Source of the DNA: Vulcanimicrobiota bacterium | GTDB lineage: Bacteria; Vulcanimicrobiota; Vulcanimicrobiia; Vulcanimicrobiales; Vulcanimicrobiaceae | Length of the DNA stretch: 64,000 nucleotides | Assembly (NCBI GenBank): GCA_963833095.1 | Contig: CAWHWQ010000002.1 | Location: 256,001 to 320,000 of the forward strand | Direction of reading: 5' to 3' | Part shown: in pieces, positions 7,117-59,735 of the stretch | Layout of the letters: the number at the start of each line of letters is the position of its first letter | Position numbering within the stretch: the first letter of the stretch is position 1 | Made by a program: the position numbers and the translations under genes | Notes under the pieces: model-generated | What the model saw: only the letters and a program-made list of their open reading frames with translations | Database searches by the model: none | What the model was told of the DNA's origin: nothing

Positions 7117-10100
7117 TTATTCGGTCAAGGCCATCTTGACGACGCGCTCCTGTTCGGCCGCGTGCGCGCCGGGATAACCTTCCGACGGTGAGGCGCGATA
7201 GCCGCGACCCGCATAGCCGATATCGAGCGGCTTGCGCAACTTCTCGAGCAAACGGCGGCGCGCGTATGCGCGCGCGCCCATGTTCTTGGGCTCTTCTTGC
7301 ACCCATACCAGCGATTTGATGTTCGGGTAGGTGTCGAGCAGCGCGTTGATTTCTTCCGAGGGCATCGGCGAGAGCAACTCTAGGCGCACGATCGCGGTCT
7401 TCTTCAATTTCGGATAGAGTTCGGACGCGATCAGATCGTAGTAGATCTTGCCCGAGCACAACAAGATGCGTTCGATCTTCGTTTTGTCGGTAATATTCGG
7501 GTCGTCGATGACGGCCTTGAACGAGCCGGTAGCCATATCATCGATCGTTCCCGATGCAGCCTCGGCGCGCAGGAGCGACTTGGGCGTCATCACCACCAGC
7601 GGCACCGGATTCGGGGAGCTTGCCTGCTGGCGCAACAGGTGATAGTAGTTGCCCGCCGTCGAGGGATACGCGACGCGCAAGTTGCCCTCGGCCGCGAGCT
7701 GCAAGAAGCGCTCGAGTCGCGCGCTCGAATGCTCAGGCCCTTGACCTTCGTAGCCGTGCGGCAGCAACAACGTGAGGCGCGAGGTCTGACCCCACTTCGC
7801 CTGACCCGCGGCAATGAATTGATCGATGATAATCTGCGCGCCGTTGACGAAGTCGCCAAACTGCGCTTCCCACAGAACCAGCGACTTCGGCACCGCCGCC
7901 GCATAACCGTATTCGAAACCGACGCAGGCGTACTCCGAAAGCGGCGAGTTATGAATCTCGAAGCTCGCTTTAGCGGCCGCGAGATGCTGGAGCGGTATGT
8001 ATTCGCTGTTGCTCGTTGGATCGTGCAGCACCGCGTGACGATGACTGAACGTGCCGCGCTCGGTATCCTGACCGGTAATGCGAATCGGGACGCCCGACGA
8101 AAGCAGCGAGCTAAACGCCAAGGCCTCGGCCATGCCCCAATCGACCAGTCCCTTTTCCGCGATGGTCGTTTTGCGCCGCTCGAATTGCGTGGTGAGTTTT
8201 TTGTTGACCGCGAACCCGTCGGGGACGGTGACGAGATCCTCCGACCAGGTCAGTAACTGCGCCTTGTCGACCGGCACGAGCGTCGCGGTCGGCAACGGCG
8301 CCGATTGCGAGATCTTCTCGATCATGCTGCCGCTATGCGATTCCTTGACGCTCTTGTAGGCCTCTTGCAGACGCGCCGTTGCTTCGGTCACCATCTCGCT
8401 TGCCTGTTCGGTCGTGATCACGCCTTGCGCGATCAATTTGTTGGCAAAGAGGTCGCGCGCGGTCGGATGCGACTTGATCTTCTCGTACATCGACGGCTGC
8501 GTGTAGGCCGGCTCGTCTTGCTCGTTGTGACCGAAGCGACGGTAGCCGATCAGATCGATCACCACATCGCGCGCAAAACGCTTGCGGAATTCTTCGGCCA
8601 AATGCACTGCGGAGATGCACGCATCGACGTCGTCGGCGTTGACGTGAATGATCGGAGCGTCGAAGCCTTTGGCGATATCCGAGGCATACCGGGTCGAGCG
8701 CGAGTCGCGCGTATCTGTCGTAAAGCCGATTTGGTTGTTGGCGATGAGATGCAGCGTGCCGCCGGTTGCATAACCGGGCAGCGACTGGAGATTGAAAACT
8801 TCGGAGATGATGCCTTGGCCTGTGAACGCTGCATCGCCGTGGATCAGAATCGGCGCGGCCTTGCGCACGTCTTGGATCGGCATCGGATTGGTGTGATCGG
8901 TCTGCAGCGCGCGCGCGCGTCCTTCGACGACCGGGTCGACTGCTTCGAGGTGACTGGGGTTGTGTTGCAGCGTCACCATGATCTGCTTGCCGCTGCTCGT
9001 GTTGTACACGCCGGTCGCTCCGTGGTGATACTTCACGTCGCCGGTCACGTCATCATCGCTGCTCACGTCGCCGCGCTGGTGTGCCGCCTCAAATTCGCCC
9101 AGCAGTTCCTCGTAGGGCATGTTGACCACGTGCGCGATCACGCTCAGGCGCCCGCGGTGCGCCATACCGAGTACCGCGTTGGGCGTATCTTCGTCGGCCA
9201 GCATCTCGAGCGTCTCCTCGAGCATCGGCACCATTACATCGAGTCCTTCGCCCGAAAAACTCTTCTGGCCGAGAAACGTTTTGCGAACGAACCGCTCGAA
9301 GGTCTCGACCTTGGTCAAGCGCTGCAAGAAGCGAACCTGCCGGTCGGGCGAAAGCGAGATCTTGTGCGCGCCGCTCTCGATCGTTTCGCGTAGCCAGCGG
9401 CGCTGTTCGGTATTGGAGATGTGTTCGAACTCGTACGCGATCGTGGAGCTGTAGATCTCGCGCAGCTTGGGCAGTACGTCAGCGAGGGTTGCACCCGGCA
9501 CGAACACGCGCAGCACCGACGCCGGAATCGCGGCTTGCAGCGAAGGCGTCAGCCCGTAGCCTGCGGGATCGAGTTTGGGATCGCCCACCGGCTCAGAACC
9601 GAGCGGATCCAGGTGTGCGGCAAGATGCCCATGCGTGCGATATCCGGAGACGATCGCCATCGCCGCCGCAACAGCGCGCAGCATTTCGTCCGTCGGCGCG
9701 GCTTTATTGTCCAACGCGAAAGCCTTGTCCACTAAAGCCCCGTCGCCGCCTCGCGGCGACTCCAGCTTCCCGACTGACAACCCTAACTGCTTAAACAGCG
9801 TTTCGTAGAAATTGTCGGCGCCTTGCAGCAGCGCATCGACGCGACGCAAATATTCGCCCGATTGCGCGCCTTGGATCACACGATGATCGTAGGTGCTCGT
9901 CATCTGCATCACTTTGCTGATGCCGAGCTGACGCAGCGCGGCTTCGGACGCACTCTGGAATCCCGCCGGATAGCCGATTGCGCCGGTTGCAAGAATCGCG
10001 CCCTGACCGACGAGCAGACGCGGCACCGACGCGACGGTGCCGATGCCGCCCGGATTGGTCAACGTAAACGAGGCGCCTTGCAGATCGTCTGCGACGAGCT

Positions 10101-11397
10101 TATTGTCGCGCGCTTTGGTGACCAGCTCCTGATATTTTGCGTAAAAGCCCGCAAAGTCGAGCGCGCCTGCATTCTTGATCACCGGAACGATTAAGAAACG
10201 CGTGCCGTCCTTGCGTTCGGAATCGACGGCGAGCCCGAGATGAATGCCCGGCTCGAGCCGCTGCGGCGCGCCGCTTTCATCGCGTCGGAAACTGTAAGTA
10301 ATAAACGGCATCTCGCTCGCTGCGCGCACCAACGCGTAGGCGACGAGATGCGTGAACGAAATCTTTTCGCTTCGCCCCGCGGATTTGATCGCCGTATTGA
10401 GTTCTTTGCGGCGCGCGTCGAGCACGTCGACCGGCAGCGTGCGAAAACTCGTCGCGGTAGGAATCGTGAGCGACTGTTCCATGTAGCCCGTCAGCGCGGC
10501 AGCCGGACCTTTGAGCGGGGTGAGTTTCGCGCCGGCAGGCGGTGGCGGTAACGGCGCTGCGGCGGACGGGGATACGGTGCTGAGCTTTCGCGCGCCGTTG
10601 GCTTGCGTGGAAACGTCGCCGCGCAGAATCAACCCGTTCGGACCCGACCCCTGAATCGACGCAAGATCGAGTTCGAGTTTGTTTGCAATGCGGCGCGCCT
10701 GATGCGACGCGGTGATTTCGCCGGTCCCCCGACTACGCGGCTCCGCCGCTACGCTCGGGATGACAACATCGGGCTTCGCTGCGCTTGGTGCAGGCGCAGA
10801 TGCGCTTGCGGTGGCGGTGGCATTTGCGTCAATCTCGGCGAGCTTTGCGCCGACTGCAACAGTGTCACCGGCTTTGCCGAAGAGCTGCGTCACGACGCCA
10901 CTCGCAGTGGCCGGCACTTCGACATCGACTTTGTCGGTCGTCACATCGACGATCGTATCGCCTTCGCTGACGCTTTGACCCGGCTTCACGCGGAACTCGA
11001 CGATCGAGCCTTCGGTCACCGATTCGCCCATCTCGGGCAGCGTCACTGCAACGATTTTCTTTTCGGAAGCCTGTGCTGCCTTACCGTTAGTGAGACGCGC
11101 CGCGTCAGCGGCGGTAGCTTTAGACGGCAAAGGTTCACCTTTGACGGATAAAGCTGTGTCGATTTCGGCGAGGGTCGCGCCGACGGCGACAGTATCGCCT
11201 TCTTTGCCGAAGAGCTGCGTGATCACGCCCGCGGCGGTGGCCGGTACTTCGACGTCGACCTTGTCGGTGGTCACGTCGACAAGCGTGTCGCCTTCGCTGA
11301 CGGCATCACCGACGCGCTTGCGCCACTCGACGATGGAGCCTTCGGTGACCGACTCCCCCATTTCGGGGAGGGTTACCTTGACTACCGGATCGGCCAC
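7117..11397 (-). CDS. kgd: Multifunctional 2-oxoglutarate dehydrogenase: 2 lipoyl domains + E3-binding + E2 succinyltransferase + E1 (Kgd-type fusion)
   Basis: Two LPEMGESVTEG...TDKV lipoyl domains, TYDHRVIQG (E2), GMAHRGRL, HGDAAFTGQG (ThDP), WEAQFGDF, LPHGYEGQGPEHSS (E1). Confidence 0.95.
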   Translation of the reverse strand: MADPVVKVTLPEMGESVTEGSIVEWRKRVGDAVSEGDTLVDVTTDKVDVEVPATAAGVITQLFGKEGDTVAVGATLAEIDTALSVKGEPLPSKATAADAARLTNGKAAQASEKKIVAVTLPEMGESVTEGSIVEFRVKPGQSVSEGDTIVDVTTDKVDVEVPATASGVVTQLFGKAGDTVAVGAKLAEIDANATATASASAPAPSAAKPDVVIPSVAAEPRSRGTGEITASHQARRIANKLELDLASIQGSGPNGLILRGDVSTQANGARKLSTVSPSAAAPLPPPPAGAKLTPLKGPAAALTGYMEQSLTIPTATSFRTLPVDVLDARRKELNTAIKSAGRSEKISFTHLVAYALVRAASEMPFITYSFRRDESGAPQRLEPGIHLGLAVDSERKDGTRFLIVPVIKNAGALDFAGFYAKYQELVTKARDNKLVADDLQGASFTLTNPGGIGTVASVPRLLVGQGAILATGAIGYPAGFQSASEAALRQLGISKVMQMTSTYDHRVIQGAQSGEYLRRVDALLQGADNFYETLFKQLGLSVGKLESPRGGDGALVDKAFALDNKAAPTDEMLRAVAAAMAIVSGYRTHGHLAAHLDPLGSEPVGDPKLDPAGYGLTPSLQAAIPASVLRVFVPGATLADVLPKLREIYSSTIAYEFEHISNTEQRRWLRETIESGAHKISLSPDRQVRFLQRLTKVETFERFVRKTFLGQKSFSGEGLDVMVPMLEETLEMLADEDTPNAVLGMAHRGRLSVIAHVVNMPYEELLGEFEAAHQRGDVSSDDDVTGDVKYHHGATGVYNTSSGKQIMVTLQHNPSHLEAVDPVVEGRARALQTDHTNPMPIQDVRKAAPILIHGDAAFTGQGIISEVFNLQSLPGYATGGTLHLIANNQIGFTTDTRDSRSTRYASDIAKGFDAPIIHVNADDVDACISAVHLAEEFRKRFARDVVIDLIGYRRFGHNEQDEPAYTQPSMYEKIKSHPTARDLFANKLIAQGVITTEQASEMVTEATARLQEAYKSVKESHSGSMIEKISQSAPLPTATLVPVDKAQLLTWSEDLVTVPDGFAVNKKLTTQFERRKTTIAEKGLVDWGMAEALAFSSLLSSGVPIRITGQDTERGTFSHRHAVLHDPTSNSEYIPLQHLAAAKASFEIHNSPLSEYACVGFEYGYAAAVPKSLVLWEAQFGDFVNGAQIIIDQFIAAGQAKWGQTSRLTLLLPHGYEGQGPEHSSARLERFLQLAAEGNLRVAYPSTAGNYYHLLRQQASSPNPVPLVVMTPKSLLRAEAASGTIDDMATGSFKAVIDDPNITDKTKIERILLCSGKIYYDLIASELYPKLKKTAIVRLELLSPMPSEEINALLDTYPNIKSLVWVQEEPKNMGARAYARRRLLEKLRKPLDIGYAGRGYRASPSEGYPGAHAAEQERVVKMALTE
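10724..10765 (-). repeat. 42-bp TGTCATC palindromic repeat inserted in frame in the kgd linker
   Basis: Minus strand TGTCATCCCGAGCGTAGCGGCGGAGCCGCGTAGTCGGGGGAC; reads VIPSVAAEPRSRGT. Confidence 0.9.
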
Positions 11398-27113: not shown

Positions 27114-27118
27114 CCGTT

Positions 27119-27317
27119 TGTCATCCCGAGCGTAGTGATCCTGAGCGAGCGAAGCGAGTCGAAGGGGAACGTAGTCGAGGGACACACGCGACCCCCCAGC
27201 TCCAAGCATGAACAGCATACAAACGTCCTATCGCGTGCGTGCCCAAGAAGTTTCTCGTCGGTCCCTCGACTTCGCGGCTGAACGCAGAGCGTTCACCCCG
27301 CTACGCTCGGGATGACA
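27119..27317. repeat. Inverted pair of TGTCATC palindromic repeats (REPIN-like), left copy with a nested second repeat
   Basis: + copy 27119-27183 and - copy 27261-27317 between convergent genes. Confidence 0.9.
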
Positions 27318-27323
27318 AGGCGC

Positions 27324-36093: not shown

Positions 36094-36098
36094 GAACT

Positions 36099-36130
36099 TG
36101 TCATCCCGAGCGTAGCGAAGCGTAGTCGAG
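36099..36130 (+). repeat. TGTCATC repeat, left arm of an inverted pair
   Basis: TGTCATCCCGAGCGTAGCGAAGCGTAGTCGAG, 5 nt after the ctpA TAA. Confidence 0.9.
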
Positions 36131-36144
36131 CGAGGCGCAACTAA

Positions 36145-36177
36145 AGAAGAGCCCGGCAAAAACCGCCGGGCTCTTCT
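36145..36177 (-). terminator. Rho-independent terminator-like hairpin
   Basis: Perfect 13-bp stem AGAAGAGCCCGGC/GCCGGGCTCTTCT; T-rich tail on the minus strand. Confidence 0.75.
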
Positions 36178-36178
36178 G

Positions 36179-36331
36179 TCATCCATTATCGATGTTTTTG
36201 GAAAAGTACTCGCGTAGCGCATCAGCGTTCTCACCGAGCGCCCGCTTCGGGAAGATAAACATCCCCACGCCCTGCGAGTGCGCCACGGTACATCCTTGGC
36301 GGTACTCAACGCGGGTAAGTGTATCGATTCG
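36179..36331 (-). pseudogene. Gene remnant resembling a YcxB-like C-terminal domain
   Basis: Startless 50-codon frame RIDTLTRVEYRQGCTVAHSQGVGMFIFPKRALGENADALREYFSKNIDNG*, preceded by an in-frame TGA and ending at the terminator. Confidence 0.4.
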
Positions 36332-36450
36332 TCAGGGTGAGCGAAGCCATCGTGTCCATGGTTAAGGCATGATCCGACTGTCCCCTCAGACCTTCGCGCA
36401 TAGTCCAAAGGAACGAGCCCGGTGTTTCCGCCGAGCTCGTTGTTTGCGCT

Positions 36451-36475
36451 TCCCTCGACTACGCTCGGGATGACA
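36451..36475 (-). repeat. TGTCATC repeat, right arm of an inverted pair (minimal form)
   Basis: Minus strand TGTCATCCCGAGCGTAGTCGAGGGA, 5 nt after the rne TAG. Confidence 0.9.
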
Positions 36476-36480
36476 AGTTA

Positions 36481-39471: not shown

Positions 39472-40263
39472 ATGGCTGCTCCGTCGAACCGCCGGGTGTT
39501 TTTCCGCCAACCGATGTACCTGCGAATCGATCTGCGGGTCTCGGGGGTGCGCGCTCCGGTGGCAGCCACGCTGGTCGACCTCTCCGGCGGGGGCGGCATG
39601 GTCATCGCCCGCACCATGCTCAGGAACCAATTGGCGGTGGAGTTCGATCTCCCGCGGGAAGGCCAGCCCCATCTACGGCTCCCCGGGAAAATCCGCAAGG
39701 TTAGTTACTCAGCGGCCGACCGCAGTTTCAAGTATGCGGTCGAATTTGAGACCCTCGACCACGAGACGCGCGAGGCGCTCCTGCGTTTCATCATCGATGA
39801 GCAGCGACGCACGATCAGTGTGGCGCGACGCGGCGATCACGCAACGGCAAAGCCGAAGCTCTCGCGGTTACAGGAGCAGCGCGCCCATCGCCGGATCGAT
39901 GTCAACATTCCGGTTCGCATTTCGCTCGTTGACGTGCCCGGGTCGATGGAAGCCGTCGCGATCGACGTGAGCACCGGCGGCTGCCGCATCCTCATCGAGC
40001 ACGTGCTGCGCCAGGAGTGGGAGGTCATTCTCCGCTTCACCTTTCCCAATGACGTACTTCGCGCCCAGCAACCCGGGCGCGCCGATGGGCGCGCAGCCTC
40101 TCCGTTCCAAGAACTCAAGGTCAATGCGCGCGCACTTCCGGGCATCAAGCAATTGCGCGGGAAATATATTCAAAGCTTGGTTTGGGTGCATCCCGATCCG
40201 AAGATTACCGAAGAGATCAGCCGCTTCGTGCAGGCGGCTCAACTCGCATCGCTTCGAAAATAG
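39472..40263 (+). CDS. Tandem PilZ-domain protein (c-di-GMP receptor)
   Basis: RRVFFR...DLSGGG and QRAHRR...DVSTGG: two RxxxR / DxSxxG pairs. Confidence 0.85.
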   Translation: MAAPSNRRVFFRQPMYLRIDLRVSGVRAPVAATLVDLSGGGGMVIARTMLRNQLAVEFDLPREGQPHLRLPGKIRKVSYSAADRSFKYAVEFETLDHETREALLRFIIDEQRRTISVARRGDHATAKPKLSRLQEQRAHRRIDVNIPVRISLVDVPGSMEAVAIDVSTGGCRILIEHVLRQEWEVILRFTFPNDVLRAQQPGRADGRAASPFQELKVNARALPGIKQLRGKYIQSLVWVHPDPKITEEISRFVQAAQLASLRK

Positions 40264-41069
40264 GACGATTCGGATGGCCTGCATCGTGCAGCTACGAGGT
40301 CAAAAGGCCATGGGTAGGCCCAGTTGGCTCGCTTGTAGAGTTCGACGTTCTTGCGCCGTCCGCCGATGTCGATCTCGGCGCGCACCAAATTGCGCAACGC
40401 CAGCAGCGGCATGACGTTCTCGAGTTCCAGTTGCCAAAAGCCGTGCAACTCCAGCTGCTCGAGTGAGTTGCACTGTGCGAGCGCTTCGACGCCGCGTAGT
40501 TCGCGAAGCTGCTCGAGCGCGAGCGTGTGCAGAGGAAGCGCCGCAAACGCGCGCGCATCGACCGGCGTTTCGATCCGCACGAGCCGCAATGCACGGAGCG
40601 ATCGCGGAAAATCCAGCGAGGTCAGGGCAACGCCCGAACATTCCAGCACTTCGAGCAGCGGATAGTCTCGCGTGAGTTCGCGCGGATCGAGCGAGCGTCC
40701 GCGGCCGGCAATGCGAAGGTAGCGCGAATCGGGCGGAAACGCTGGCTTCCAGCGATTGCGCACAACGAGCGGCGGAAGTTCGAGGTTGGCAATTCCGAGG
40801 TGCGTTGCAACGATGCGCTCCGCATGCGCGGGGCCTATCCAACCGTTGCTCTTGTCATCCCGAGCGTAGGCGCGGAACGACGAAGTCACGGGACGGATCA
40901 CACGCCATCGATGGAGGACCAATGCGCGGTCGCCGACGCCCCGTAGCACGATATCGCCGATCGCGATATCGACCGTGTGATGCTCGCAATGCAGAATCGT
41001 CGCCGGCCTGGTTGAGCCGTCGCCGAGCGGGAGGGCGAATGAGTCGCCCGCGCGATAGGGAAGTTTCAC
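40239..41069 (-). CDS. Hypothetical protein, Imm26-like N-terminus and leucine-rich-repeat-like C-terminus
   Basis: GDSFALPLGDG...DRALVLHRWRVI; LEVLEC, LRALRL, LHTLAL, LEQLEL periodicity. Confidence 0.55.
   Translation of the reverse strand: MKLPYRAGDSFALPLGDGSTRPATILHCEHHTVDIAIGDIVLRGVGDRALVLHRWRVIRPVTSSFRAYARDDKSNGWIGPAHAERIVATHLGIANLELPPLVVRNRWKPAFPPDSRYLRIAGRGRSLDPRELTRDYPLLEVLECSGVALTSLDFPRSLRALRLVRIETPVDARAFAALPLHTLALEQLRELRGVEALAQCNSLEQLELHGFWQLELENVMPLLALRNLVRAEIDIGGRRKNVELYKRANWAYPWPFDLVAARCRPSESSYFRSDAS
40853..40894 (+). repeat. 42-bp TGTCATC repeat inserted in frame, antisense to the host ORF
   Basis: TGTCATCCCGAGCGTAGGCGCGGAACGACGAAGTCACGGGAC; reads PVTSSFRAYARDD in the minus-strand ORF. 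Confidence 0.85.
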
Positions 41070-42835: not shown

Positions 42836-43186
42836 TCAGTGCGCGGTCGCGGGACTTTGCGACGGCGGCTTCTTTCGCCGGCGACGCCGTGGCGGCGGCC
42901 CGGACTGCGCCGGTGGCTGCGGCGGCGGACTGGGCCGATTGACCGAAACGATCGGAATATTCGCAAGCATCGCAAGCGCCCGGTCCTCACGTTCGAAGTT
43001 CACTTCGACTTTGTCGCGATCGACTTCGACGTAGCGGGAGATCACGTCGACGAGATCGCGCTTCATGTTCTCGATGATATCGGGCGCGAGCGCAAGGTGA
43101 TCGGTCATCAGCACGAGGCGCAGCCGCTCTTTTGCAGTCGAGCTCGACGTCGGACCGCCGAACATCTTTTTGACCCAGTCGATCAT
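42836..43186 (-). CDS. minE: Cell division topological specificity factor MinE
   Basis: SSTAKERLRLVL, MKRDLVDVISRYV, ANIPI; extended Pro/Arg-rich tail. Confidence 0.92.
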   Translation of the reverse strand: MIDWVKKMFGGPTSSSTAKERLRLVLMTDHLALAPDIIENMKRDLVDVISRYVEVDRDKVEVNFEREDRALAMLANIPIVSVNRPSPPPQPPAQSGPPPRRRRRKKPPSQSPATAH

Positions 43187-44022
43187 GCGCGCTTCCCTCC
43201 GAAGATCGAGCCGAGCTTGTCCATGAACGACTCTTTGAGTTCGGGGGACGGCGCGGGCACGTCTTCGCCCGCGACACGCGCGGCAATCGCGTGGTACGCG
43301 CTCGCGGTCTCGCCCTCGTGGCGCAGTGCAAGCGGTTCGCCTCGGTTGGTGGTAATGATAATCTCCGGTTCGTCGGCAATGACGCCTAGCAGCGGCAGGC
43401 GCAGGATTGCGTTGACATCTTCGACCGAGAGCATCTTGCCCTTCTTTACCAACTGCGGGCGCAGACGATTGATGATCAACTGCGGCTTGAAGCGGTTGCC
43501 GAGCAAGCCAACCACGCGGTCAACGTCGCGGACCGCCGAAACCTCGGGCGTGCAGACAACGATTGCTTCGTCAGCACCGACGATGGCGTTCTTGAAGCCC
43601 TGCTCGATGCCGGCCGGACAGTCGATCAACACGTAGTCGAAACGTTCGCGAAGCCCCTGAACGAGCGCGCGCATCTTCTCGGTGTCAACTTCGTCTTTCT
43701 CGCGCGACTGCGCAGCAGCAAGAAGCACCAAGGTCTCGCTGTGCTTGTCGGGCACGAGCGCCTCGTCGAGCGAGACCTTGTCCTCGAGCACGTCGAGCAA
43801 ATGGTATTTCACGCGACTCTCGAGTCCGAGCACGATGTCGAGATTGCGCAGCCCGACGTCGGCATCGATCAAGGCGACGCGCGCCCCCCGCTGCGCAAGC
43901 GCGGTGCCCAAATTGGCAGTAGTCGTCGTTTTGCCGACGCCGCCCTTGCCCGAGGTCACGACGATCGCCCGCCCGAGCTTCGCTGCGGGAGTTGCGACTT
44001 CATGAGGAACTGGTTGGTGCAT
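43183..44022 (-). CDS. minD: Septum site-determining ATPase MinD (copy 2)
   Basis: TSGKGGVGKTT, DADVGLRNLD, DCPAGIE, C-terminal amphipathic helix. Confidence 0.93.
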   Translation of the reverse strand: MHQPVPHEVATPAAKLGRAIVVTSGKGGVGKTTTTANLGTALAQRGARVALIDADVGLRNLDIVLGLESRVKYHLLDVLEDKVSLDEALVPDKHSETLVLLAAAQSREKDEVDTEKMRALVQGLRERFDYVLIDCPAGIEQGFKNAIVGADEAIVVCTPEVSAVRDVDRVVGLLGNRFKPQLIINRLRPQLVKKGKMLSVEDVNAILRLPLLGVIADEPEIIITTNRGEPLALRHEGETASAYHAIAARVAGEDVPAPSPELKESFMDKLGSIFGGKRA

Positions 44023-44029
44023 CGAATGA

Positions 44030-44821
44030 TTACCCCGCCTTGAGAGCGCCGAAGAGTTTGCCGAAGAAGCCTTGCGCGTCGAAGGTCGTGAACGGCACCA
44101 TCTCGCCTTCGAGACGCCGCGCGATCTTCTCGTAAATGCCGCCCAGCCGCGCGGCCGGATCGAGCACAATCGGCTCGCCGCGGTTCGTGGTGTCGATAAC
44201 CTCGGGATCTTCGGGGATCACCCCGACGAGCTCGACGGCGAGAATCTCGCAGACGTCTTCGACCGAAAGCATGTCGCCGGTACGCACCATCTCAGGGCGC
44301 AGGCGATTGAGAATCAATCGGATCGGCAGCCCGCGGTCGTTGAGTTTGCCCACCACGCGATCGGCATCGCGAATCGCGCTGACTTCCGGCGTCGTGACGA
44401 CGATTGCTTCCTTAGCGCCGGCGACCGCATTACGGAAACCGCCTTCGATGCCGGCCGGGCAATCGATCAGAACGTAGTCGGCATTTTGCGCGATCTCTGC
44501 TACCACCGCCTCGAATTGCGACTCGGTGATCGCGTCTTTGTCGCGGGTTTGCGCGGCCGGAAGAATCGAGAGCGATTCGAAGCGCTTATCCTTGATGAGC
44601 GCCTGGCGCAGTTGGCAGCGTCCCTCCACGACTTCGACCAAATCGAACACGATTCGCTTCTCAAGACCCAGCACGAGATCGAGATTGCGCAGTCCGATGT
44701 CGGCATCGACCAACACCACACGCAATCCGCGTTTCGCGAGCGCGGCGCCAAGATTTGCCGTGGTCGTGGTCTTACCCACGCCACCCTTGCCCGACGTGAT
44801 GACGATGCGACGTCCTGACAT
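44030..44821 (-). CDS. minD: Septum site-determining ATPase MinD (copy 1)
   Basis: TSGKGGVGKTT, DADIGLRNLD, IRDADR, GFFGKLFG membrane-targeting helix. Confidence 0.95.
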   Translation of the reverse strand: MSGRRIVITSGKGGVGKTTTTANLGAALAKRGLRVVLVDADIGLRNLDLVLGLEKRIVFDLVEVVEGRCQLRQALIKDKRFESLSILPAAQTRDKDAITESQFEAVVAEIAQNADYVLIDCPAGIEGGFRNAVAGAKEAIVVTTPEVSAIRDADRVVGKLNDRGLPIRLILNRLRPEMVRTGDMLSVEDVCEILAVELVGVIPEDPEVIDTTNRGEPIVLDPAARLGGIYEKIARRLEGEMVPFTTFDAQGFFGKLFGALKAG

Positions 44822-44822
44822 G

Positions 44823-45617
44823 TTATCCGGCTACCTCCGCTGCCTTGGAAAATGGTGCGATCGCGATCCGCCCGTCACGCACAAACGCTACCTCGGGTTC
44901 CGACGAAGTGCGCGCATGCTCCTCGTCGACGGCGATCACACTTGCAATACGCAATTGCGTGGCGTGCAATTGCAACGCGTAGACTTTTGCTTCACTATCG
45001 CCTTGCGCGCCGGCGTGCGCAACACCGAGCAAGCGTCCGAAGACGACGATATCGCCGGTTGCGACGAGTTCGGTTCCTGGGTTGACGTCGCCGACGACGA
45101 CGATGTTCCCAGCATGGTGCAAGGCTTGCCCACCGCGCAGCGTTCCGACGTGATACAGCGTACCGGGCGGCGGCGGCGGCGCGACTTGCAACGCAGACCC
45201 TGCGGCTGCCGCTGCAGCAGCGCTTGCATTCGCGCGCCGGACGCTGGTCTCGCCGCGTTTGCGCCGCTCGGCGATATCGGCGCGCGCGCCGTCAAAGTCG
45301 GCGACGAGCGATCGCGCCGCGTCCGAAAGCTTGAGCTCGCGTTTGGGACGCAGAGCCCGTCGCCGAGCCAACTCCTGCGCGTCGGGCGCCTGGGCCACGG
45401 CGCGCAGCTCGATGCCCGCCTCGCCCAGCACGGTGCGCAGCGTTTCGACTTGCTCGTCGGTAAGGGGCGATTCACCCAGGACGACTCTCGCCGTGGTTCC
45501 GCGATAGAAGTCGGCCCGCTCGCCAAGGCGAGCAGACAGTTCAGCAACTGCCGCGTCGAAATCCCAACCGGCGAGATGGACTTCGAGGCCGAGGCCTCGC
45601 CCGCGAATCAAGGACAT
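44823..45617 (-). CDS. minC: Septum site-determining protein MinC
   Basis: TLRGGQ, VVVGDVNPG, GVAHAG, QLRIA; start MSLIRG at 45617. Confidence 0.92.
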   Translation of the reverse strand: MSLIRGRGLGLEVHLAGWDFDAAVAELSARLGERADFYRGTTARVVLGESPLTDEQVETLRTVLGEAGIELRAVAQAPDAQELARRRALRPKRELKLSDAARSLVADFDGARADIAERRKRGETSVRRANASAAAAAAAGSALQVAPPPPPGTLYHVGTLRGGQALHHAGNIVVVGDVNPGTELVATGDIVVFGRLLGVAHAGAQGDSEAKVYALQLHATQLRIASVIAVDEEHARTSSEPEVAFVRDGRIAIAPFSKAAEVAG

Positions 45618-45690
45618 TGGCCTCCGTTTCAGACGCCCGCGGCGAGCGGCCCTTCGCGAATCCACAGGGACTCGCAAGTTCTTCCGGTTA

Positions 45691-45712
45691 TACACACATC
45701 GTACACACTTCG
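45691..45712. promoter_or_regulatory. 11-bp tandem direct repeat in the minC / M48 divergent intergenic region
   Basis: TACACACATCG TACACACTTCG. Confidence 0.4.
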
Positions 45713-45803: not shown

Positions 45804-47816
45804 ATGTTCCGCCGCATCAGCGCCTTTCTGACCATGTTGCTGCTCATTGGTGCCATATGCCCGGCACCTGTTCGCGCGACCTCAACCCAGACCGAGGTCG
45901 AGATGGGCCGTTCGGAAGACGAGCAGATCGTCGACACCAGCGTCGTCGAAACCGATCCGCTCATGAACGCCTACGTGCAAAAGATCGCGGGCAACGATTG
46001 GAAGCAAGTCGAGCGCAAAGACGTCCCCTACAACATCAAGATTCTCAAAGACACCGAAGTCAACTCGTTTGCGACGATGGGCGGCTACATCTATATCAAT
46101 GAAGGCCTGATCGATTTCGTCCAATCCGACGACGAACTCGCGGGCGTGATCGGCCATGAAACCGGGCACATCGAGCGCCGCCACGTGCTCACCTCGCAAT
46201 CCAAACTCGAAGCGCTCAACCTGCTCTTCGGCCTGGCCTCCATGCTCTCGCCCATCATCTACGAATTCGGGAATCTCATGGAGGCAGGCGCATTCGCGAA
46301 GATTGAGCGAGCCGACGAATTGCAGGCCGATCGCACCGGCTTACAATTGATGTCGCGGGCGGGCTACGATCCCGACAACATGAAGACGATGATGGAACAC
46401 TTGGGCGTGCTTGAAGACGAGCACAGCGACATGGTCACCAAGTATCTCGAGGACCATCCCAATCCCAAGGCGCGCGTCGCGCATTTGGATGGGTATCCCG
46501 AACTCGATCCGACCAAGGTGACCGAAGATCAGCGCGTCGTGCAAGCGGCATCCGACCGCGAACGCGGACGTTATGAATTCTCATCACTGAAGTTCCAGCA
46601 AATCCTCAAAACCGATCCCAGCAATGCAGAAGCCTTGCTCGGTCTCGGCCAAGATCAAATCGCGCTAGGCTTCCCGAACAAGAGCCAGCAGACGCTCGCG
46701 GAGGCGGCGCAAATCGGTTCGCCGCAGACCAAGGCGCTGGCCGAGCAAAAGATTTCGGACCTGCGCGAAGTGCAGGCGCAGCGCGTCACGCTGACCGCTC
46801 CCAATCTAGGTGGATTGCGCACCCAGTTCGCCGATGCGCAGACAGCACAGGCCGCAGCCAATGCGGCGATCGCCGCGCGTCACGATCAGGGGAAGGATCA
46901 GCTCAAACAACTGCGGACGCGTACCGACGCTTTGCAATACGAAGTTCCGAATTTCGGCAACCTCAACATCCCGCACGGCTCAAAGCTCGAGTCCGTCTTC
47001 AAGAATGTGATGTTGATGGGCCGCTCGCTCAACAGCGCCCTCGAGGACGCCAGTACGACGATCAACGGCGTTGGCTCCCTCGACCGCAATAAGCAATCGG
47101 GATTGCTCAAAGAGAGCAACACCATCCTCGATGAGATGCAGCAGACGCTCAATTCAACGCCAATCCCGACCGACCAGATCGCGATCTTGCCGTCGTATCC
47201 GGCCATCTTCAATGAGTTGCGCCACGCCGATAGCGATATGATTCGTAGCGTCGACGCCGCGCGGGCATCGCTGACCACGCTCGACCAGGCGTTGGGTGAC
47301 GTGGACGAATTCTTTCGCGAACTCAACCGCACGCAACCGAACTATCGCGGCGATTTCGGTCAGTCGCAATTCAACGACCTTCAGCCGCTGATGCAAAAGG
47401 CGATGACCGACCTCGACGCAGCGGCGACGCAAGCCTCGCAGGCGGCGCAACTCTACAACATGGCACGCACTCGCCAGCTTTCGTCGCGGATCACGCTGCT
47501 GGGCGTGGGCACCTCACCGGAGCGCTACGCCTCGCTACAGTACGTACTGCAACAACGCTTCGGTATGAACGGTATACCATACCAAGAGATGCTTCACGAT
47601 GCGATCACGCCGGGTGACGTGGTCGTCGCTACGATCCTCGCCGCCGACATCAAGTCGACGCCCGAGGATATCGTGGATCAAATGGTGAGCGAGAAAAAGT
47701 CACCGGTCGATCTAGCCGACGAGCATGGTATGCATGCCTGGCCGCTGGAGATCTTCACCGGCCTCGTGTATCTTGACTACACCGACGATCCGGCAAAGGA
47801 AATGGCAACAACGTAA
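45804..47816 (+). CDS. M48-family metallopeptidase with TPR and helical C-terminal region
   Basis: VNSFATMGG, GHETGH (HExxH), ELQADR, HP..RV; signal peptide. Confidence 0.88.
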   Translation: MFRRISAFLTMLLLIGAICPAPVRATSTQTEVEMGRSEDEQIVDTSVVETDPLMNAYVQKIAGNDWKQVERKDVPYNIKILKDTEVNSFATMGGYIYINEGLIDFVQSDDELAGVIGHETGHIERRHVLTSQSKLEALNLLFGLASMLSPIIYEFGNLMEAGAFAKIERADELQADRTGLQLMSRAGYDPDNMKTMMEHLGVLEDEHSDMVTKYLEDHPNPKARVAHLDGYPELDPTKVTEDQRVVQAASDRERGRYEFSSLKFQQILKTDPSNAEALLGLGQDQIALGFPNKSQQTLAEAAQIGSPQTKALAEQKISDLREVQAQRVTLTAPNLGGLRTQFADAQTAQAAANAAIAARHDQGKDQLKQLRTRTDALQYEVPNFGNLNIPHGSKLESVFKNVMLMGRSLNSALEDASTTINGVGSLDRNKQSGLLKESNTILDEMQQTLNSTPIPTDQIAILPSYPAIFNELRHADSDMIRSVDAARASLTTLDQALGDVDEFFRELNRTQPNYRGDFGQSQFNDLQPLMQKAMTDLDAAATQASQAAQLYNMARTRQLSSRITLLGVGTSPERYASLQYVLQQRFGMNGIPYQEMLHDAITPGDVVVATILAADIKSTPEDIVDQMVSEKKSPVDLADEHGMHAWPLEIFTGLVYLDYTDDPAKEMATT

Positions 47817-47820
47817 TATC

Positions 47821-48813
47821 ATGGCATCGGCACTAGGCGCACGCGATCTCTTCCGGCTCGTACGTAACGGCATCGACGTCAACAGCGTCCACGTGCGCAT
47901 CCGCAAGCCGTTCCGTTTCCTATTGTGCGGAGATCATGCGCTCATTGGGCAGATGCGCGCCATGCTGCTTTCCGGTCATGCGGATGACTCAGTGCCCGAT
48001 GATGCCGCGGCCTGTATCGAAACGATCTCGCCCAGCGCGCCGCTCATCACCGAGCCGAGCGAAGTGCGGGTGGTCATTTTCCTCGGCTATCCGGGCGATC
48101 GCGAGGGCGCGAACCTCGAACCGCTCAAGGTTCTGCGCGTGCCGATCCTTGCGCTGACGATCGATCCGCTCGAAACGCCGGCCGGACCTGCCGCCGTTCC
48201 CGCGCCGTCAACGGTCGGCGACTACGTCGTCAACGCGATCACCAAAGATGCGCTCAAGGGCCGCGTTTTCACGCACATCGTCGAGGCTTCGAAGGGCGTT
48301 GAGATCGCCGTAGGCCGTCGCCTTCCGCCGCTGCGCGAAACGGTCGCGGCCAAGCTGACGCGCGATGCTGCAAATAATTCGCTCAAAGTCGCACTGGCAA
48401 GCGCCCTAGTCGATCACATTCCGGTCGTCGGCGTCGTGCTCGGCGCCTTTGCATCGGCCGGCGACATGGTGGCGATCACCGGATTTCAGATGATGCTGCT
48501 GCTGCACATCGAGGCGACCTACGGCAAGGACCCCGACGTACAGCGCATGTGGAAACTGCTGCCGGTTATCGGCGGCGGCTTCGGCTGGCGCACGCTCGCG
48601 CGTGAACTCGCCGGCTTCGTTCCGGTGGCGGGCGTCGCGATCAAGGGCGCCATCGCCTACGCCGGTACGATCGTCGTCGGCGAAAGCGTCACGTTCTTTT
48701 TAGAGCACGGCTCGCACATGAGTAAGGCGCAGGCCTCGCAGCTCTACGACCGCACCAAAGCCGACGCGCTACGCTTCGCCCGCGACCTCATCCTCCGCAT
48801 CAAAAAGAAGTAA
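47821..48813 (+). CDS. DUF697-like membrane-associated protein
   Basis: IPVVG..ASAGD...FQMMLL, GFGWRTLAREL..VPVAG..IKGAIAYAGT. Confidence 0.7.
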   Translation: MASALGARDLFRLVRNGIDVNSVHVRIRKPFRFLLCGDHALIGQMRAMLLSGHADDSVPDDAAACIETISPSAPLITEPSEVRVVIFLGYPGDREGANLEPLKVLRVPILALTIDPLETPAGPAAVPAPSTVGDYVVNAITKDALKGRVFTHIVEASKGVEIAVGRRLPPLRETVAAKLTRDAANNSLKVALASALVDHIPVVGVVLGAFASAGDMVAITGFQMMLLLHIEATYGKDPDVQRMWKLLPVIGGGFGWRTLARELAGFVPVAGVAIKGAIAYAGTIVVGESVTFFLEHGSHMSKAQASQLYDRTKADALRFARDLILRIKKK

Positions 48814-48819
48814 CGCTCC

Positions 48820-48942
48820 TGTCATCCCGAGCGTAGCTGCGTAGCAGCGAAGTCGAGGGACCGGTGCAATCCCTTGTCATCATGAGCGTAGCCTCCCAAT
48901 TGTCATCCCGAGCGTAGCTGCGTAGCAGCGAAGTCGAGGGAC
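48820..48942 (+). repeat. Left array of TGTCATC repeats
   Basis: Full copies 48820-48861 and 48901-48942, partial copy 48875-48892; 13-bp linker CGGTGCAATCCCT. Confidence 0.95.
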
Positions 48943-48948
48943 TGGCAA

Positions 48949-49245
48949 CTACGTCGTGCGGTTGCGACCGCGGCTGTAACGTTTTATGGCTTTCCAATCT
49001 CCGTCGACGAACGCGCGTTTCTTGCGGTGCGACCACGCTTTGAGCTTCTTCTCGAAGGCGATTGCCTCTCCGACCCAGGTAAACTCCGAAACGTGCACGA
49101 GGATAAGCGGTCGACGATCAAAAGTGTAGCACTCGGGATCGATGCCGAAGGAATGTTCGCTCAGACGCCGCTCGATGTCATTTGTAACCCCGACGTAGAA
49201 TGTCCCATCAAAGCATCGCAAGACGTAGACGTAATAACTTTTCAC
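48949..49245 (-). CDS. Stand-alone GIY-YIG nuclease (UPF0213/YhbQ-like)
   Basis: YYVYVLRC.DGTFYVGVTNDIERRLSEH...EAIAFEKKLKAWSHRKK; probable GTG start 49245, 98 aa. Confidence 0.92.
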   Translation of the reverse strand: MKSYYVYVLRCFDGTFYVGVTNDIERRLSEHSFGIDPECYTFDRRPLILVHVSEFTWVGEAIAFEKKLKAWSHRKKRAFVDGDWKAIKRYSRGRNRTT

Positions 49246-49280
49246 GCCTGAGCATCTGCTTCGTCGCAGCGCATTGGCTA

Positions 49281-49493
49281 GCATCGGTCCCTCGACTTTG
49301 CTGCTAGGCAGCTACGCTCGGGATGACAAGGGATTGCATCGGTCCCTCGACTTCGCTGCTACGCAGCTACGCTCGGGATGACAAGGGATTGCATCGGTCC
49401 CTCGACTTCGCTGCTACGCAGCTACGCTCGGGATGACAAGGGATTGCATCGGTCCCTCGACTTTGCTGCTACCCAGCTACGCTCGGGATGACA
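49281..49493 (-). repeat. Right array: four tandem 55-bp units (42-bp repeat + 13-bp linker)
   Basis: Repeats at 49287-49328, 49342-49383, 49397-49438 and 49452-49493, inverted relative to the left array. Confidence 0.97.
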
Positions 49494-49502
49494 ATTGGAG
49501 CG

Positions 49503-50243
49503 TTACAGACGCTCGAGTAAGTCTTCGTCTTCAAGGCGTTGCAAGTCCGCCGGAAGACGCGGACGGACGCGCTGCGCAAGTTGCGATGCGAGGGCGGCGC
49601 GGCGTTGCGGCACAAGATCGGTGCGCCGCTCGAGGAAGCGCCGGATGATCGACCGTTCCTCACCGCTCACATACGCGGTCGCTGCGTACACGGGTTCCGC
49701 CACTTCGCGTAGCATCTTTTCGGGCGATTCCATCCGGGATTCGCGAATCACGATCGTTCCGGCCGCAAGATCGCCGATGCGTTTATTCTGTGGCGAAAAG
49801 ACCGCGACCACGGCCGAGAGGGCATAGAATCCGAGCGCCATCTCACCTACGCGAATCAAGTTGCGAATGACCGACGCCATGAAATCGATCGGATAGCCGC
49901 CGTCGCGGACCACGCGAATGCCCAACATCCGTTTTCCCGGCGTTTGCCCGTTCCACAGGGCTTCGAAAAGAATGAAGTAGCCAAAGAAGATCAAGAACAG
50001 CACGACAATGACCATCGCAATGGCGATACTCTCCACGAGGTGATCGCGGCTGCCCAGACGCATCGTCGCATACGTACCATGCGACGTTGCGGCGATCGCG
50101 GTCAAGCCCCAGACCAGCAGCAAAAGGAACGCGATTTGAATCGCGAGGTCAACGGCGAGCGCAAGAAACCGGCTACCGACGCCGGCGAGCTCGTAGGAGA
50201 AGGCGATCGATTCCGGCGTGCGGACCTCTAGGGTTCGATCCAT
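49503..50243 (-). CDS. RDD-family membrane protein
   Basis: TPESI..YELAGVGSRFLA..VD, GQTPGKR, RNLIR, KRIGDLAAGT. Confidence 0.92.
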   Translation of the reverse strand: MDRTLEVRTPESIAFSYELAGVGSRFLALAVDLAIQIAFLLLLVWGLTAIAATSHGTYATMRLGSRDHLVESIAIAMVIVVLFLIFFGYFILFEALWNGQTPGKRMLGIRVVRDGGYPIDFMASVIRNLIRVGEMALGFYALSAVVAVFSPQNKRIGDLAAGTIVIRESRMESPEKMLREVAEPVYAATAYVSGEERSIIRRFLERRTDLVPQRRAALASQLAQRVRPRLPADLQRLEDEDLLERL

Positions 50244-59645: not shown

Positions 59646-59735
59646 CGTCATCCCGGGTGTAGCAAAGCGACGTCGAGGGCAGATCCCAGGCGGTGCTGCC
59701 GGCTCCGGTGCTCGGCGCCTACCCCCAGCATGACA
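59646..59735. repeat. Degenerate inverted pair of TGTCATC-family repeats
   Basis: CGTCATCCCGGGTGTAGCAAAGCGACGTCGAGGGC (59646-59680) and a decayed inverse arm CTACCCCCAGCATGACA (59719-59735). Confidence 0.65.

What the first reader, a model, noticed from the sequence alone, without database searches (positions are those of the whole stretch)
48810..49506. GIY-YIG nuclease gene bracketed by inverted arrays of a dispersed palindromic repeat: candidate RAYT-independent REP mobilisation system
Seen: a 98-aa stand-alone GIY-YIG gene is flanked on the left by two full and one partial 42-bp repeats and on the right by four tandem 55-bp units in the opposite orientation. These are the most homogeneous copies in the window; diverged copies occur at five other loci, two inside genes. 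No transposase is present in the window. Established: REP/REPIN families cluster around their HUH (RAYT) transposase gene in this way, and CGTC-tagged palindromic repeat families have been catalogued in bacteria. Inference: the GIY-YIG protein is the cognate nuclease that nicks the hairpin and spreads or amplifies the repeat, making this an autonomous unit with non-autonomous satellites. I am not aware of a biochemical description of such a system, but cannot search to confirm novelty.
Basis: partly seen in the sequence, partly recalled or inferred. Interest (0 to 1): 0.92.

Follow-up and report, generated by a model that had tools for sequence, protein, structure and literature searches.

The report
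Hairpin-flanked small nuclease, Ssn cousin
A tiny DNA-cutting gene sits between copies of a hairpin repeat that is scattered through the genome; it has the same layout as the recently published Ssn nuclease system but belongs to a separate protein branch with a different hairpin, and it is a good candidate for the enzyme that spreads these repeats.

Summary
Observation confirmed. A 98-aa GIY-YIG gene (48949-49245, minus strand) lies between inward-facing arrays of a GTCA-tagged imperfect hairpin with 166 core copies genome-wide. The gene-repeat link is general: 64 of 74 homologous loci from about eight phyla carry the hairpin within 350 bp (3 of 70 at distance); 0 of 19 distant (mostly syntenic) homologues do. 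The unit occupies 18 sites in 20 related genomes, and 6 of 15 congeners have a repeat-free junction here. Repeat subtype and copy number track the gene subtype. No RAYT was found in this genome or 16 of 17 congeners. The layout is not new: Chenal et al. 2025 (PMC11893778) described hairpin-flanked GIY-YIG ssDNA nucleases (Ssn) and proposed a REP/IS200-like element. This protein fails the Ssn tests (SRM motif 0 of 74; separate clade, nearer UPF0213), so it is a new variant. Best model: it nicks the single-stranded hairpin 5' of the tag and host repair copies and inserts repeats. Cleavage and mobilisation were not shown; no target duplication was found, and congeners lacking the gene keep repeats. 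The scan noted this pairing before in at least 88 other genomes.

The parts
47725..48813 (+). Left host gene (362-aa ORF, no Pfam/NCBIfam hit); its stop codon is 7 nt before the first repeat tag. Not part of the element.
48820..48861 (+). Left array, full hairpin unit 1: GTCA tag, 4-bp stem, GAG...TCGA bulged motif, inner stem-loop
48874..48892 (+). Left array, partial unit (tag and 5' half only, two changes)
48900..48942 (+). Left array, full hairpin unit 2; 100% complementary to right-array units 2 and 3
   Evidence: I7, I8
48949..49245 (-). 98-aa single-domain GIY-YIG nuclease; Y7, Y17, G19, R27, H31, E65 invariant in 32 of 32 aligned homologues; dN/dS about 0.08 against G009
49254..49281 (-). 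Conserved promoter-like stretch between the innermost repeat and the start codon; strict pattern met in 9 of 30 related elements; function untested
49276..49494 (-). Right array: four tandem 55-bp units, tags facing the gene
49503..50243 (-). Right host gene, RDD family, convergent with the left gene. Not part of the element.
10724..10766 (-). Satellite copy in frame in the Ala/Pro linker of a SucB-SucA fusion gene (7117-11397)
27118..27318 (.). Gene-less inward doublet between convergent genes
36098..36476 (.). Inward doublet between convergent genes, enclosing about 300 bp of unidentified DNA
40852..40898 (+). Satellite copy inside a conserved 276-aa gene (40239-41069, minus strand)
59646..59690 (+). 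Degenerate single copy just after a stop codon

Best explanation
This is a small selfish unit, hairpin-nuclease-hairpin, with many gene-less satellites. It works like Ssn/NTS but belongs to a separate GIY-YIG branch. SHOWN: gene and hairpin travel together, the unit has changed location many times, the gene is under purifying selection, and repeat subtype and abundance follow the gene subtype. INFERRED from Ssn biochemistry: the protein binds the bulged hairpin on single-stranded DNA, on the GTCA-tag strand only, and hydrolyses the backbone a few nucleotides 5' of the tag. Because the tags face inward, the cuts fall at the two outer ends of the unit on opposite strands. INFERRED, weakest step: GIY-YIG enzymes form no covalent protein-DNA bond (recalled knowledge), so the enzyme cannot do strand transfer as RAYT does. 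The freed 3'-OH is extended and joined by host repair, with template switching between copies or arms. That would give tandem arrays, homogenised arms and new insertions, which survive mostly just after stop codons and in flexible linkers. Odds per step: cognate hairpin nuclease about 0.8; main driver of repeat spread about 0.55.
For: Flanks: 64 of 74 GTDB loci with complete flanks carry the hairpin within 350 bp, 51 on both sides, against 3 of 70 about 1 kb away. The 10 misses show variant hairpins by eye. In relatives 21 of 22 close homologues carry it against 0 of 19 distant ones. Structure: 115 of 182 stem pairs are fully complementary against 10.7 in shuffles (maximum 21), with 24 distinct stems. 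Mobility: 27 gene loci in 20 genomes fall into 18 sites; 6 of 15 congeners have a repeat-free junction here. Copy number: median 69 with versus 1.5 without the subtype-1 gene (9 vs 28 genomes), 153.5 versus 12 for subtype 2 (12 vs 25); in 19 other genera, 52-359 copies in all 9 with a gene and 0-32 in all 10 without. Repeat tag and stem labels cluster on the protein tree (3 changes vs 6.9 shuffled; 4 vs 9.7). dN 0.117 and dS 1.44 against G009. SsnA cuts upstream of a GTCA-tagged hairpin, on ssDNA only, using Y6, Y17 and E64, matching Y7, Y17 and E65 here.
Against: No cleavage or mobility assay. No target-site duplication of 4-6 bp in 0 of 19 doublets. No joints in contigs of four runs from one study. 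Seven congeners with no intact gene found keep 12-71 subtype-1 copies, including two single-contig genomes. The same hairpin subtype flanks Ssn-group genes in 2 of 80 repeat-anchored metagenome loci, against 1 of 80 for this clade, so the pairing is not exclusive. Doublets also enclose other DNA. Array boundaries give no fixed cut position (median shared flank 2 nt in 68 arrays). Genomes are related, so the P-values overstate, and gene subtypes were partly assigned by their flanks.
Confidence: 0.55

Rival explanations
1. Host gatekeeper, as in Neisseria. The enzyme cuts its hairpin on ssDNA but is kept because it limits recombination of incoming DNA; the repeats spread by other means or in the past.
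For: This is the only in vivo role shown for any such enzyme. The gene is under purifying selection and usually intact in one or two copies. DprA is present in G000.
Against: The gene is patchy (10 of 17 congeners match, several as remnants) and sits at 18 different sites, unlike a fixed host gene. ComEC was not found in G000, which is 81% complete; the congener check did not complete. This role and the selfish one can coexist.
Confidence: 0.2
2. Passenger. Hairpin doublets move or amplify by an unknown enzyme or by host slippage and recombination, and the nuclease gene is one of several small cargoes carried between them.
For: Other DNA lies between inward repeats in G000 (C5:394393-394867, C2:292100-292474) and at this very junction in G005. 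Repeats persist where the gene was not found. Only 3 of 80 repeat-anchored loci have any GIY-YIG gene nearby.
Against: A passenger should not be flanked in 64 of 74 loci across phyla, nor match repeat subtype to protein subclade, nor predict genome-wide copy number. The other cargoes were each seen once.
Confidence: 0.15
3. A RAYT or IS200-type tyrosine transposase elsewhere in the genome mobilises the repeats.
For: REP/RAYT systems have the same layout. G000 is only 81% complete. Other HUH or DDE families were not screened.
Against: Y1_Tnp was found in 0 of 1 (G000), 1 of 17 congeners and 2 of 36 family members. None of 17 Y1_Tnp loci has the exact repeat cores (loose pattern in 3 of 17). Di Nocera et al. 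report that CGTC-type repeats do not flank tyrosine transposases.
Confidence: 0.05
4. The repeats are RNA-level elements (3' UTR hairpins) and the gene is an ordinary UPF0213 repair nuclease that landed among them by chance.
For: 41 of 101 outer tags lie within 40 nt after a same-strand stop codon (12% for random non-genic sites). The nearest solved structures are UPF0213 proteins.
Against: The distant UPF0213-like homologues are mostly syntenic within their groups and have no repeats (0 of 19). No Rfam match. Chance is excluded.
Confidence: 0.05

Closest known systems
Ssn family (SsnA; CDD cd10448) with NTS/SRM hairpins, Chenal et al. 2025, PMC11893778
   Same: Single-domain GIY-YIG of about 95 aa; gene flanked on both sides by GTCA-tagged hairpins that are also dispersed in high copy; matching Tyr, Tyr and Glu residues; the authors propose an IS200/REP-like element that was domesticated.
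   Different: The protein is a separate group, joined with UPF0213 rather than Ssn at UFBoot 99. Its C-terminus reads WS-R-KK...W instead of W-R-WK...NP-W-DL. The hairpin has a 4-bp stem plus a GAG...TCGA bulged motif and does not match the SRM pattern (0 of 74 loci; 0 of 166 copies in G000). Activity untested.
CGTC/TGTC-tagged REP superfamily, Di Nocera et al. 2013, PMC3733652
   Same: TGTC(A) tag at one end, inverted dimers, location after coding regions, intragenic copies, no flanking tyrosine transposase.
   Different: Their four families have 8-9 bp stems and 4-5 nt loops; this one has a short stem with bulges and a variable inner hairpin. The authors say bulged types may have been missed and name no enzyme. 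Their Figure 2 consensus sequences could not be seen.
REP/REPIN with RAYT (REPtrons)
   Same: One enzyme gene between inverted repeats and arrays, with many gene-less singlets and doublets elsewhere.
   Different: The enzyme is a hydrolytic GIY-YIG nuclease, not an HUH tyrosine transposase; the tag is GTCA, not GTAG.
UPF0213 (YazA/YhbQ; PDB 1ZG2, 1YWL) and Slx1
   Same: Best sequence and fold matches (E 4e-13 and 6e-12; Foldseek ranks 1-3).
   Different: UPF0213-like genes in relatives are mostly syntenic and repeat-free (0 of 19) and form their own clade (support 0.98 and 99). They lack the conserved C-terminal helix motif of this group.

Membership tests
Ssn (cd10448) | Small single-domain GIY-YIG protein with the catalytic Tyr, Tyr and Glu | tested here: met
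   98 aa, PF01541 only; Y7, Y17, E65 invariant; model pLDDT 93.5
Ssn (cd10448) | Gene flanked on both sides by tagged hairpin repeats | tested here: met
Ssn (cd10448) | Flanking repeats match the published SRM pattern | tested here: not met
   0 of 74 loci; 16 SRM matches in G000, none at a repeat copy; positive controls L150, L153, L154 match on both sides
Ssn (cd10448) | Falls within the Ssn clade / passes the paper's homology thresholds | tested here: not met
   Separate from 27 Ssn-type proteins anchored on A. lipoferum 4B, a genome in the paper's Supp Data 5; 50 bits to that anchor. E. mollis, whose only small PF01541 genes are two of this clade, is scored NO for SsnA homology and NO for CDD score >100, but YES for the loose PSSM search. 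N. meningitidis SsnA and the CDD models themselves were not available.
Ssn (cd10448) | Site-specific cleavage of ssDNA only, upstream of the tag | not testable with these tools
   needs purified protein
REPtron (RAYT) | HUH/Y1 tyrosine transposase between the repeats | tested here: not met
   The gene is GIY-YIG; PF01797 not found in G000
REPtron (RAYT) | Inverted doublets and arrays dispersed genome-wide | tested here: met
   94 loci: 62 singles, 19 inward doublets, 11 tandem, 2 other
CGTC-tagged REPs | Unpaired CGTC/TGTC terminal tag | tested here: met
   T precedes GTCA in 142 of 166 copies, C in 17
CGTC-tagged REPs | 8-9 bp stem with 4-5 nt loop (families 1-4) | tested here: not met
   4-bp covarying stem, bulged motif, variable inner part; definition from passages of PMC3733652
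UPF0213 housekeeping nucleases | Sequence clade of YazA and syntenic, repeat-free genes | tested here: inconclusive
   Nearest group, but the housekeeping clade is distinct and nests within this group only with weak support; context differs
MITE / classical IS | Target-site duplication flanking terminal inverted repeats | tested here: not met
   0 of 19 doublets with a 4-6 bp direct repeat at offsets 0-5; copies may be too old to keep one

The most novel reading that the evidence does not exclude
A class of bacterial mobile element whose only enzyme is a 98-aa hydrolytic GIY-YIG nickase: it cuts a strand-specific, non-canonical DNA hairpin and host repair completes copying and insertion. This would supply the missing mobiliser for a whole branch of CGTC/TGTC-tagged REPs across many phyla. 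If the weakly supported rooting holds, housekeeping UPF0213 genes would be domesticated descendants of such elements.
Probability: 0.4. Interest if true: 0.8.

Novelty: new variant of a known kind. Interest (0 to 1): 0.5.

Why it matters
CGTC-type REPs were reported to lack a dedicated transposase (PMC3733652), and the Ssn paper raised but did not test the idea that hairpin-nuclease-hairpin units are mobile. This locus adds a second enzyme branch with a different hairpin, plus comparative evidence that bears directly on mobility: filled, remnant and repeat-free versions of one site, 18 locations, and two repeat subtypes whose abundance follows two gene subtypes within one family. That makes the open question testable with one small protein and short oligonucleotides. 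It would also widen the set of site-specific ssDNA nucleases for biotechnology.

Tried and rejected
Target-site duplications: none of 4-6 bp in 19 doublets; outward extension of the inverted arms was not significant (mean 2.5 vs 2.3, p 0.075). Cut-site mapping from array boundaries: no peak in 68 arrays; long values come from degenerate first copies. Energy-based folding of one unit: not better than shuffles. Sequencing runs: no RNA holder listed; contigs of four DNA runs from one study showed no joints, and none spans the stretch, so this is no evidence either way. Rfam: no match. PHROGs: one marginal hit of unknown function; NCBIfam: none over cut-off. Phage records: best 38% identity, 26 records. 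ESM Atlas gave only generic GIY-YIG clusters. DUF559 nucleases: none in G000. The Y1 queries were picked crudely; the single hit in G000 came from an apparently mis-picked frame. ComEC survey of congeners: not answered. The host tree cannot tell one old insertion with many losses from repeated insertion at a hotspot. No complex prediction was run, as DNA cannot be the partner. Literature: eight searches found only PMC11893778 on this pairing; none showed the bulged-hairpin clade, but most subscription papers are not covered.
Full report
OBSERVATION. The anatomy is as described. A 98-aa GIY-YIG ORF (48949-49245, minus strand; PF01541 E 4e-15) lies between two convergent host genes. Left of it are two full units and one partial unit, right of it four units of period 55, all with the GTCA tag facing the gene. 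The 13-nt core occurs 12 times in the window against 0.32 expected. The window is G000:C2:256001-320000 of a 2.8-Mb, 81% complete genome; the closest named homologues come from Vulcanimicrobiota/Eremiobacterota. Genome-wide there are 166 core copies in 94 loci: 62 singles, 19 inward doublets, 11 tandem arrays, 2 other. With a crude gene caller, 33 of 64 intergenic loci lie between convergent genes (background 465 of 2475 gene pairs), and 41 of 101 outer tags follow a same-strand stop within 40 nt.

THE REPEAT. It is not a clean palindrome; a single unit folds no better than shuffles. Across homologous loci the constant parts are GTCA, a 4-nt arm, GAG, a variable inner part, TCGA, and the complement of the arm. 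Taken without a pairing filter, 115 of 182 locus-distinct arm pairs (71 loci) are fully Watson-Crick complementary against a shuffled mean of 10.7 (maximum 21 of 1000), with 24 different stems. The fixed GA opposite GA and the GNA loops suggest sheared G-A pairs, which are stable in single-stranded DNA and form on one strand only. That reading is recalled knowledge plus inference, not a result.

GENE-REPEAT LINK. The motif rule was drawn from relatives' loci and then applied to these. Six loci with short flanks were dropped. Of 74, 64 carry the hairpin within 350 bp, 51 on both sides and 42 in the inward arrangement; control windows about 1 kb away score 3 of 70. The 10 misses show variants by eye, five with a GTTCG tag. 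Among relatives of G000, 21 of 22 close homologues are flanked (18 on both sides) against 0 of 19 distant, UPF0213-like homologues (one further distant locus gave no hit).

MOBILITY. The junction between the two host genes was fetched from 15 of 17 congeners: full element in G009, a 5' gene remnant between repeats in G001, a doublet around other DNA in G005, a left repeat at a contig end in G007, half repeats in four, a different repeat subtype plus an unrelated 1.4-kb ORF in G002, and no repeat in six (-4 to 20 bp between the genes). G000, G009 and G002 form a clade, so G002 lost or replaced the unit. Twenty-seven gene loci (remnants included) from 20 genomes fall into 18 sites by shared flanks (short contigs could hide some sharing); one site holds different subtypes in G004 and G008. 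The gene is under purifying selection (dN 0.117, dS 1.44 against G009), and its dS exceeds that of host genes (0.55-0.72), which fits separate transfer or weaker codon bias. One contig of run X1 differs from the window in the left array while its gene contig has 2 differences: a hint of strain-level array change from a single contig.

COPY NUMBER FOLLOWS THE GENE. Two subtypes occur in this family, with stems TCCC/GGGA and YCCT/AGGR. Counts came, gene presence, for 37 genomes. Subtype-1 repeats: median 69 in 9 genomes with the subtype-1 gene, 1.5 in 28 without. Subtype 2: 153.5 in 12 with, 12 in 25 without. In 19 other genera, one genome each, the 9 with a gene have 52-359 copies and the 10 without have 0-32. 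G000 itself keeps a decayed subtype-2 gene at C5:230434-230732 and 33 subtype-2 copies. Against this: seven congeners with no intact gene found keep 12-71 subtype-1 copies, the genomes are kin, and subtype labels lean on the flanks.

RAYT RIVAL. PF01797 was not found in G000, and was found in 1 of 17 congeners and 2 of 36 family members. None of 17 Y1_Tnp loci has the exact cores. In a repeat-first scan, 80 of 121 metagenome stretches were listed: 3 have a GIY-YIG gene within 700 bp and none hit my crude Y1 queries. Two of those three genes are Ssn-group proteins beside the same hairpin subtype, and several other Ssn-group genes have their own bulged GTCA hairpins. The hairpin type is therefore not exclusive to this clade.

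PRIOR ART. An earlier scan note led me to PMC11893778. I read its outline, parts 1-4 of the text, sections 12, 16, 17, 18, found passages, Supp Data 5 whole, part 1 and four rows of Supp Data 4, and a term search of 13 of 14 supplements; figures were not visible and could show SRM-free clades. SsnA is a 94-aa GIY-YIG protein that binds a GTCA-tagged hairpin as ssDNA only and cuts a few nt upstream; 42% of homologues are flanked on both sides; the discussion likens the layout to IS200/REP systems and suggests it explains repeat expansion, without testing mobility. Of PMC3733652 I saw passages only: CGTC repeats 'apparently lack a dedicated transposase'. Other papers were seen only as search listings.

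MEMBERSHIP. The SRM pattern matches 0 of 74 flanks and 0 of 166 copies, while three plasmid controls match on both sides. In a 156-protein FastTree (95 columns; 2 of 158 rows dropped, fragments and duplicates left out beforehand) the 27 Ssn-type and 25 housekeeping proteins each form a clean split (1.0, 0.98), and 100 of 104 of this group form a third (0.84). IQ-TREE on 52 rows rooted with UvrC joins this group with the housekeeping clade at UFBoot 99, apart from Ssn; the root is a long branch and deeper order is uncertain. S. wenxiniae and F. johnsoniae are scored YES; the former has seven PF01541 matches that I did not analyse. So the system works like Ssn/NTS but is not filed as Ssn.

MECHANISM AND VERDICT. 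Shown: co-occurrence, relocation, selection, subtype tracking, absence of RAYT in most carriers searched. Inferred: strand-specific nicking 5' of the tag (about 0.8), then host repair and template switching produce arrays and new copies (about 0.55). In this element both outer flanks share a 10-nt inverted stretch that includes the two host stop codons, and the left array repeats the right array's spacer, as arm-to-arm copying would produce; G009 lacks this. No target duplication, circle or joint was seen. Verdict: real, a new variant of a known kind, interest 0.5. The scan has 91 similar notes from at least 88 genomes; these are leads, not support. Unpublished genomes: G059 supplies 1 of the 19 distant controls, one tree row and one Y1 locus, and G048 and G059 count in the 61-genome tallies; no conclusion depends on them.

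Noticed in passing
window 10724-10766 in gene 7117-11397; L209-L225: The Ala/Pro linker of a SucB-SucA fusion (2-oxoglutarate dehydrogenase) holds in-frame repeat copies at different positions and of different subtypes in congeners; 7 of 16 aligned rows have the exact core and others degenerate ones. It looks like a recurrent insertion hotspot, in the manner of Rickettsia palindromic elements (name recalled).
   Followed up: partly
G000:C5:313236-313451, C1:139646-139872 and others: Two further ~100-bp self-complementary families fill many doublets: core A (11 BLAST hits, 4 without the flanking repeat) and core B (9 hits). They may be nested repeat families with their own unknown enzyme.
   Followed up: partly
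G000:C5:394393-394867 (L226): A doublet with two different stems encloses an open frame of about 120 codons with no Pfam hit: possible captured cargo gene.
   Followed up: partly
window 36098-36476; L037:264-739: Doublets enclosing 300-400 bp of apparently decayed coding DNA, one of them at the same junction as the nuclease gene in G005; no Pfam hit for the L037 frame tested.
   Followed up: partly
G000:C5:230434-230732 (L054): Decayed 3' half of a subtype-2 nuclease gene between subtype-2 repeats; the same site holds intact or decayed copies in five congeners.
   Followed up: yes
G000:C1:575932-576267; C4:196702-197080: Long arrays of half-hairpins (ten 24-bp units; twelve copies in mixed units), showing amplification away from the nuclease gene.
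   Followed up: partly
L104, L116, L119, L126, L136, L149, L206, L148: Protein subclades use other tags (GTTCG, CTCA) on the same bulged hairpin; the GTTCG group clusters on the tree.
   Followed up: partly
L247, L286, L157, L195-L199: Ssn-group genes flanked by bulged GTCA hairpins that the published SRM pattern misses, so the Ssn-repeat association is probably larger than reported.
   Followed up: partly
G000 and congeners: No syntenic UPF0213-type housekeeping gene was found in G000 or among the listed congener matches, although other genera of the family have one.
   Followed up: no
window 43183-45695: minC followed by two tandem minD-like genes (identified from sequence by eye, not scanned).
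   Followed up: no
G000:C5:260112-260234 (L002): The second GIY-YIG match is a UvrC-like N-terminus in an open frame of only 77 aa, possibly a frameshift or sequencing error.
   Followed up: no
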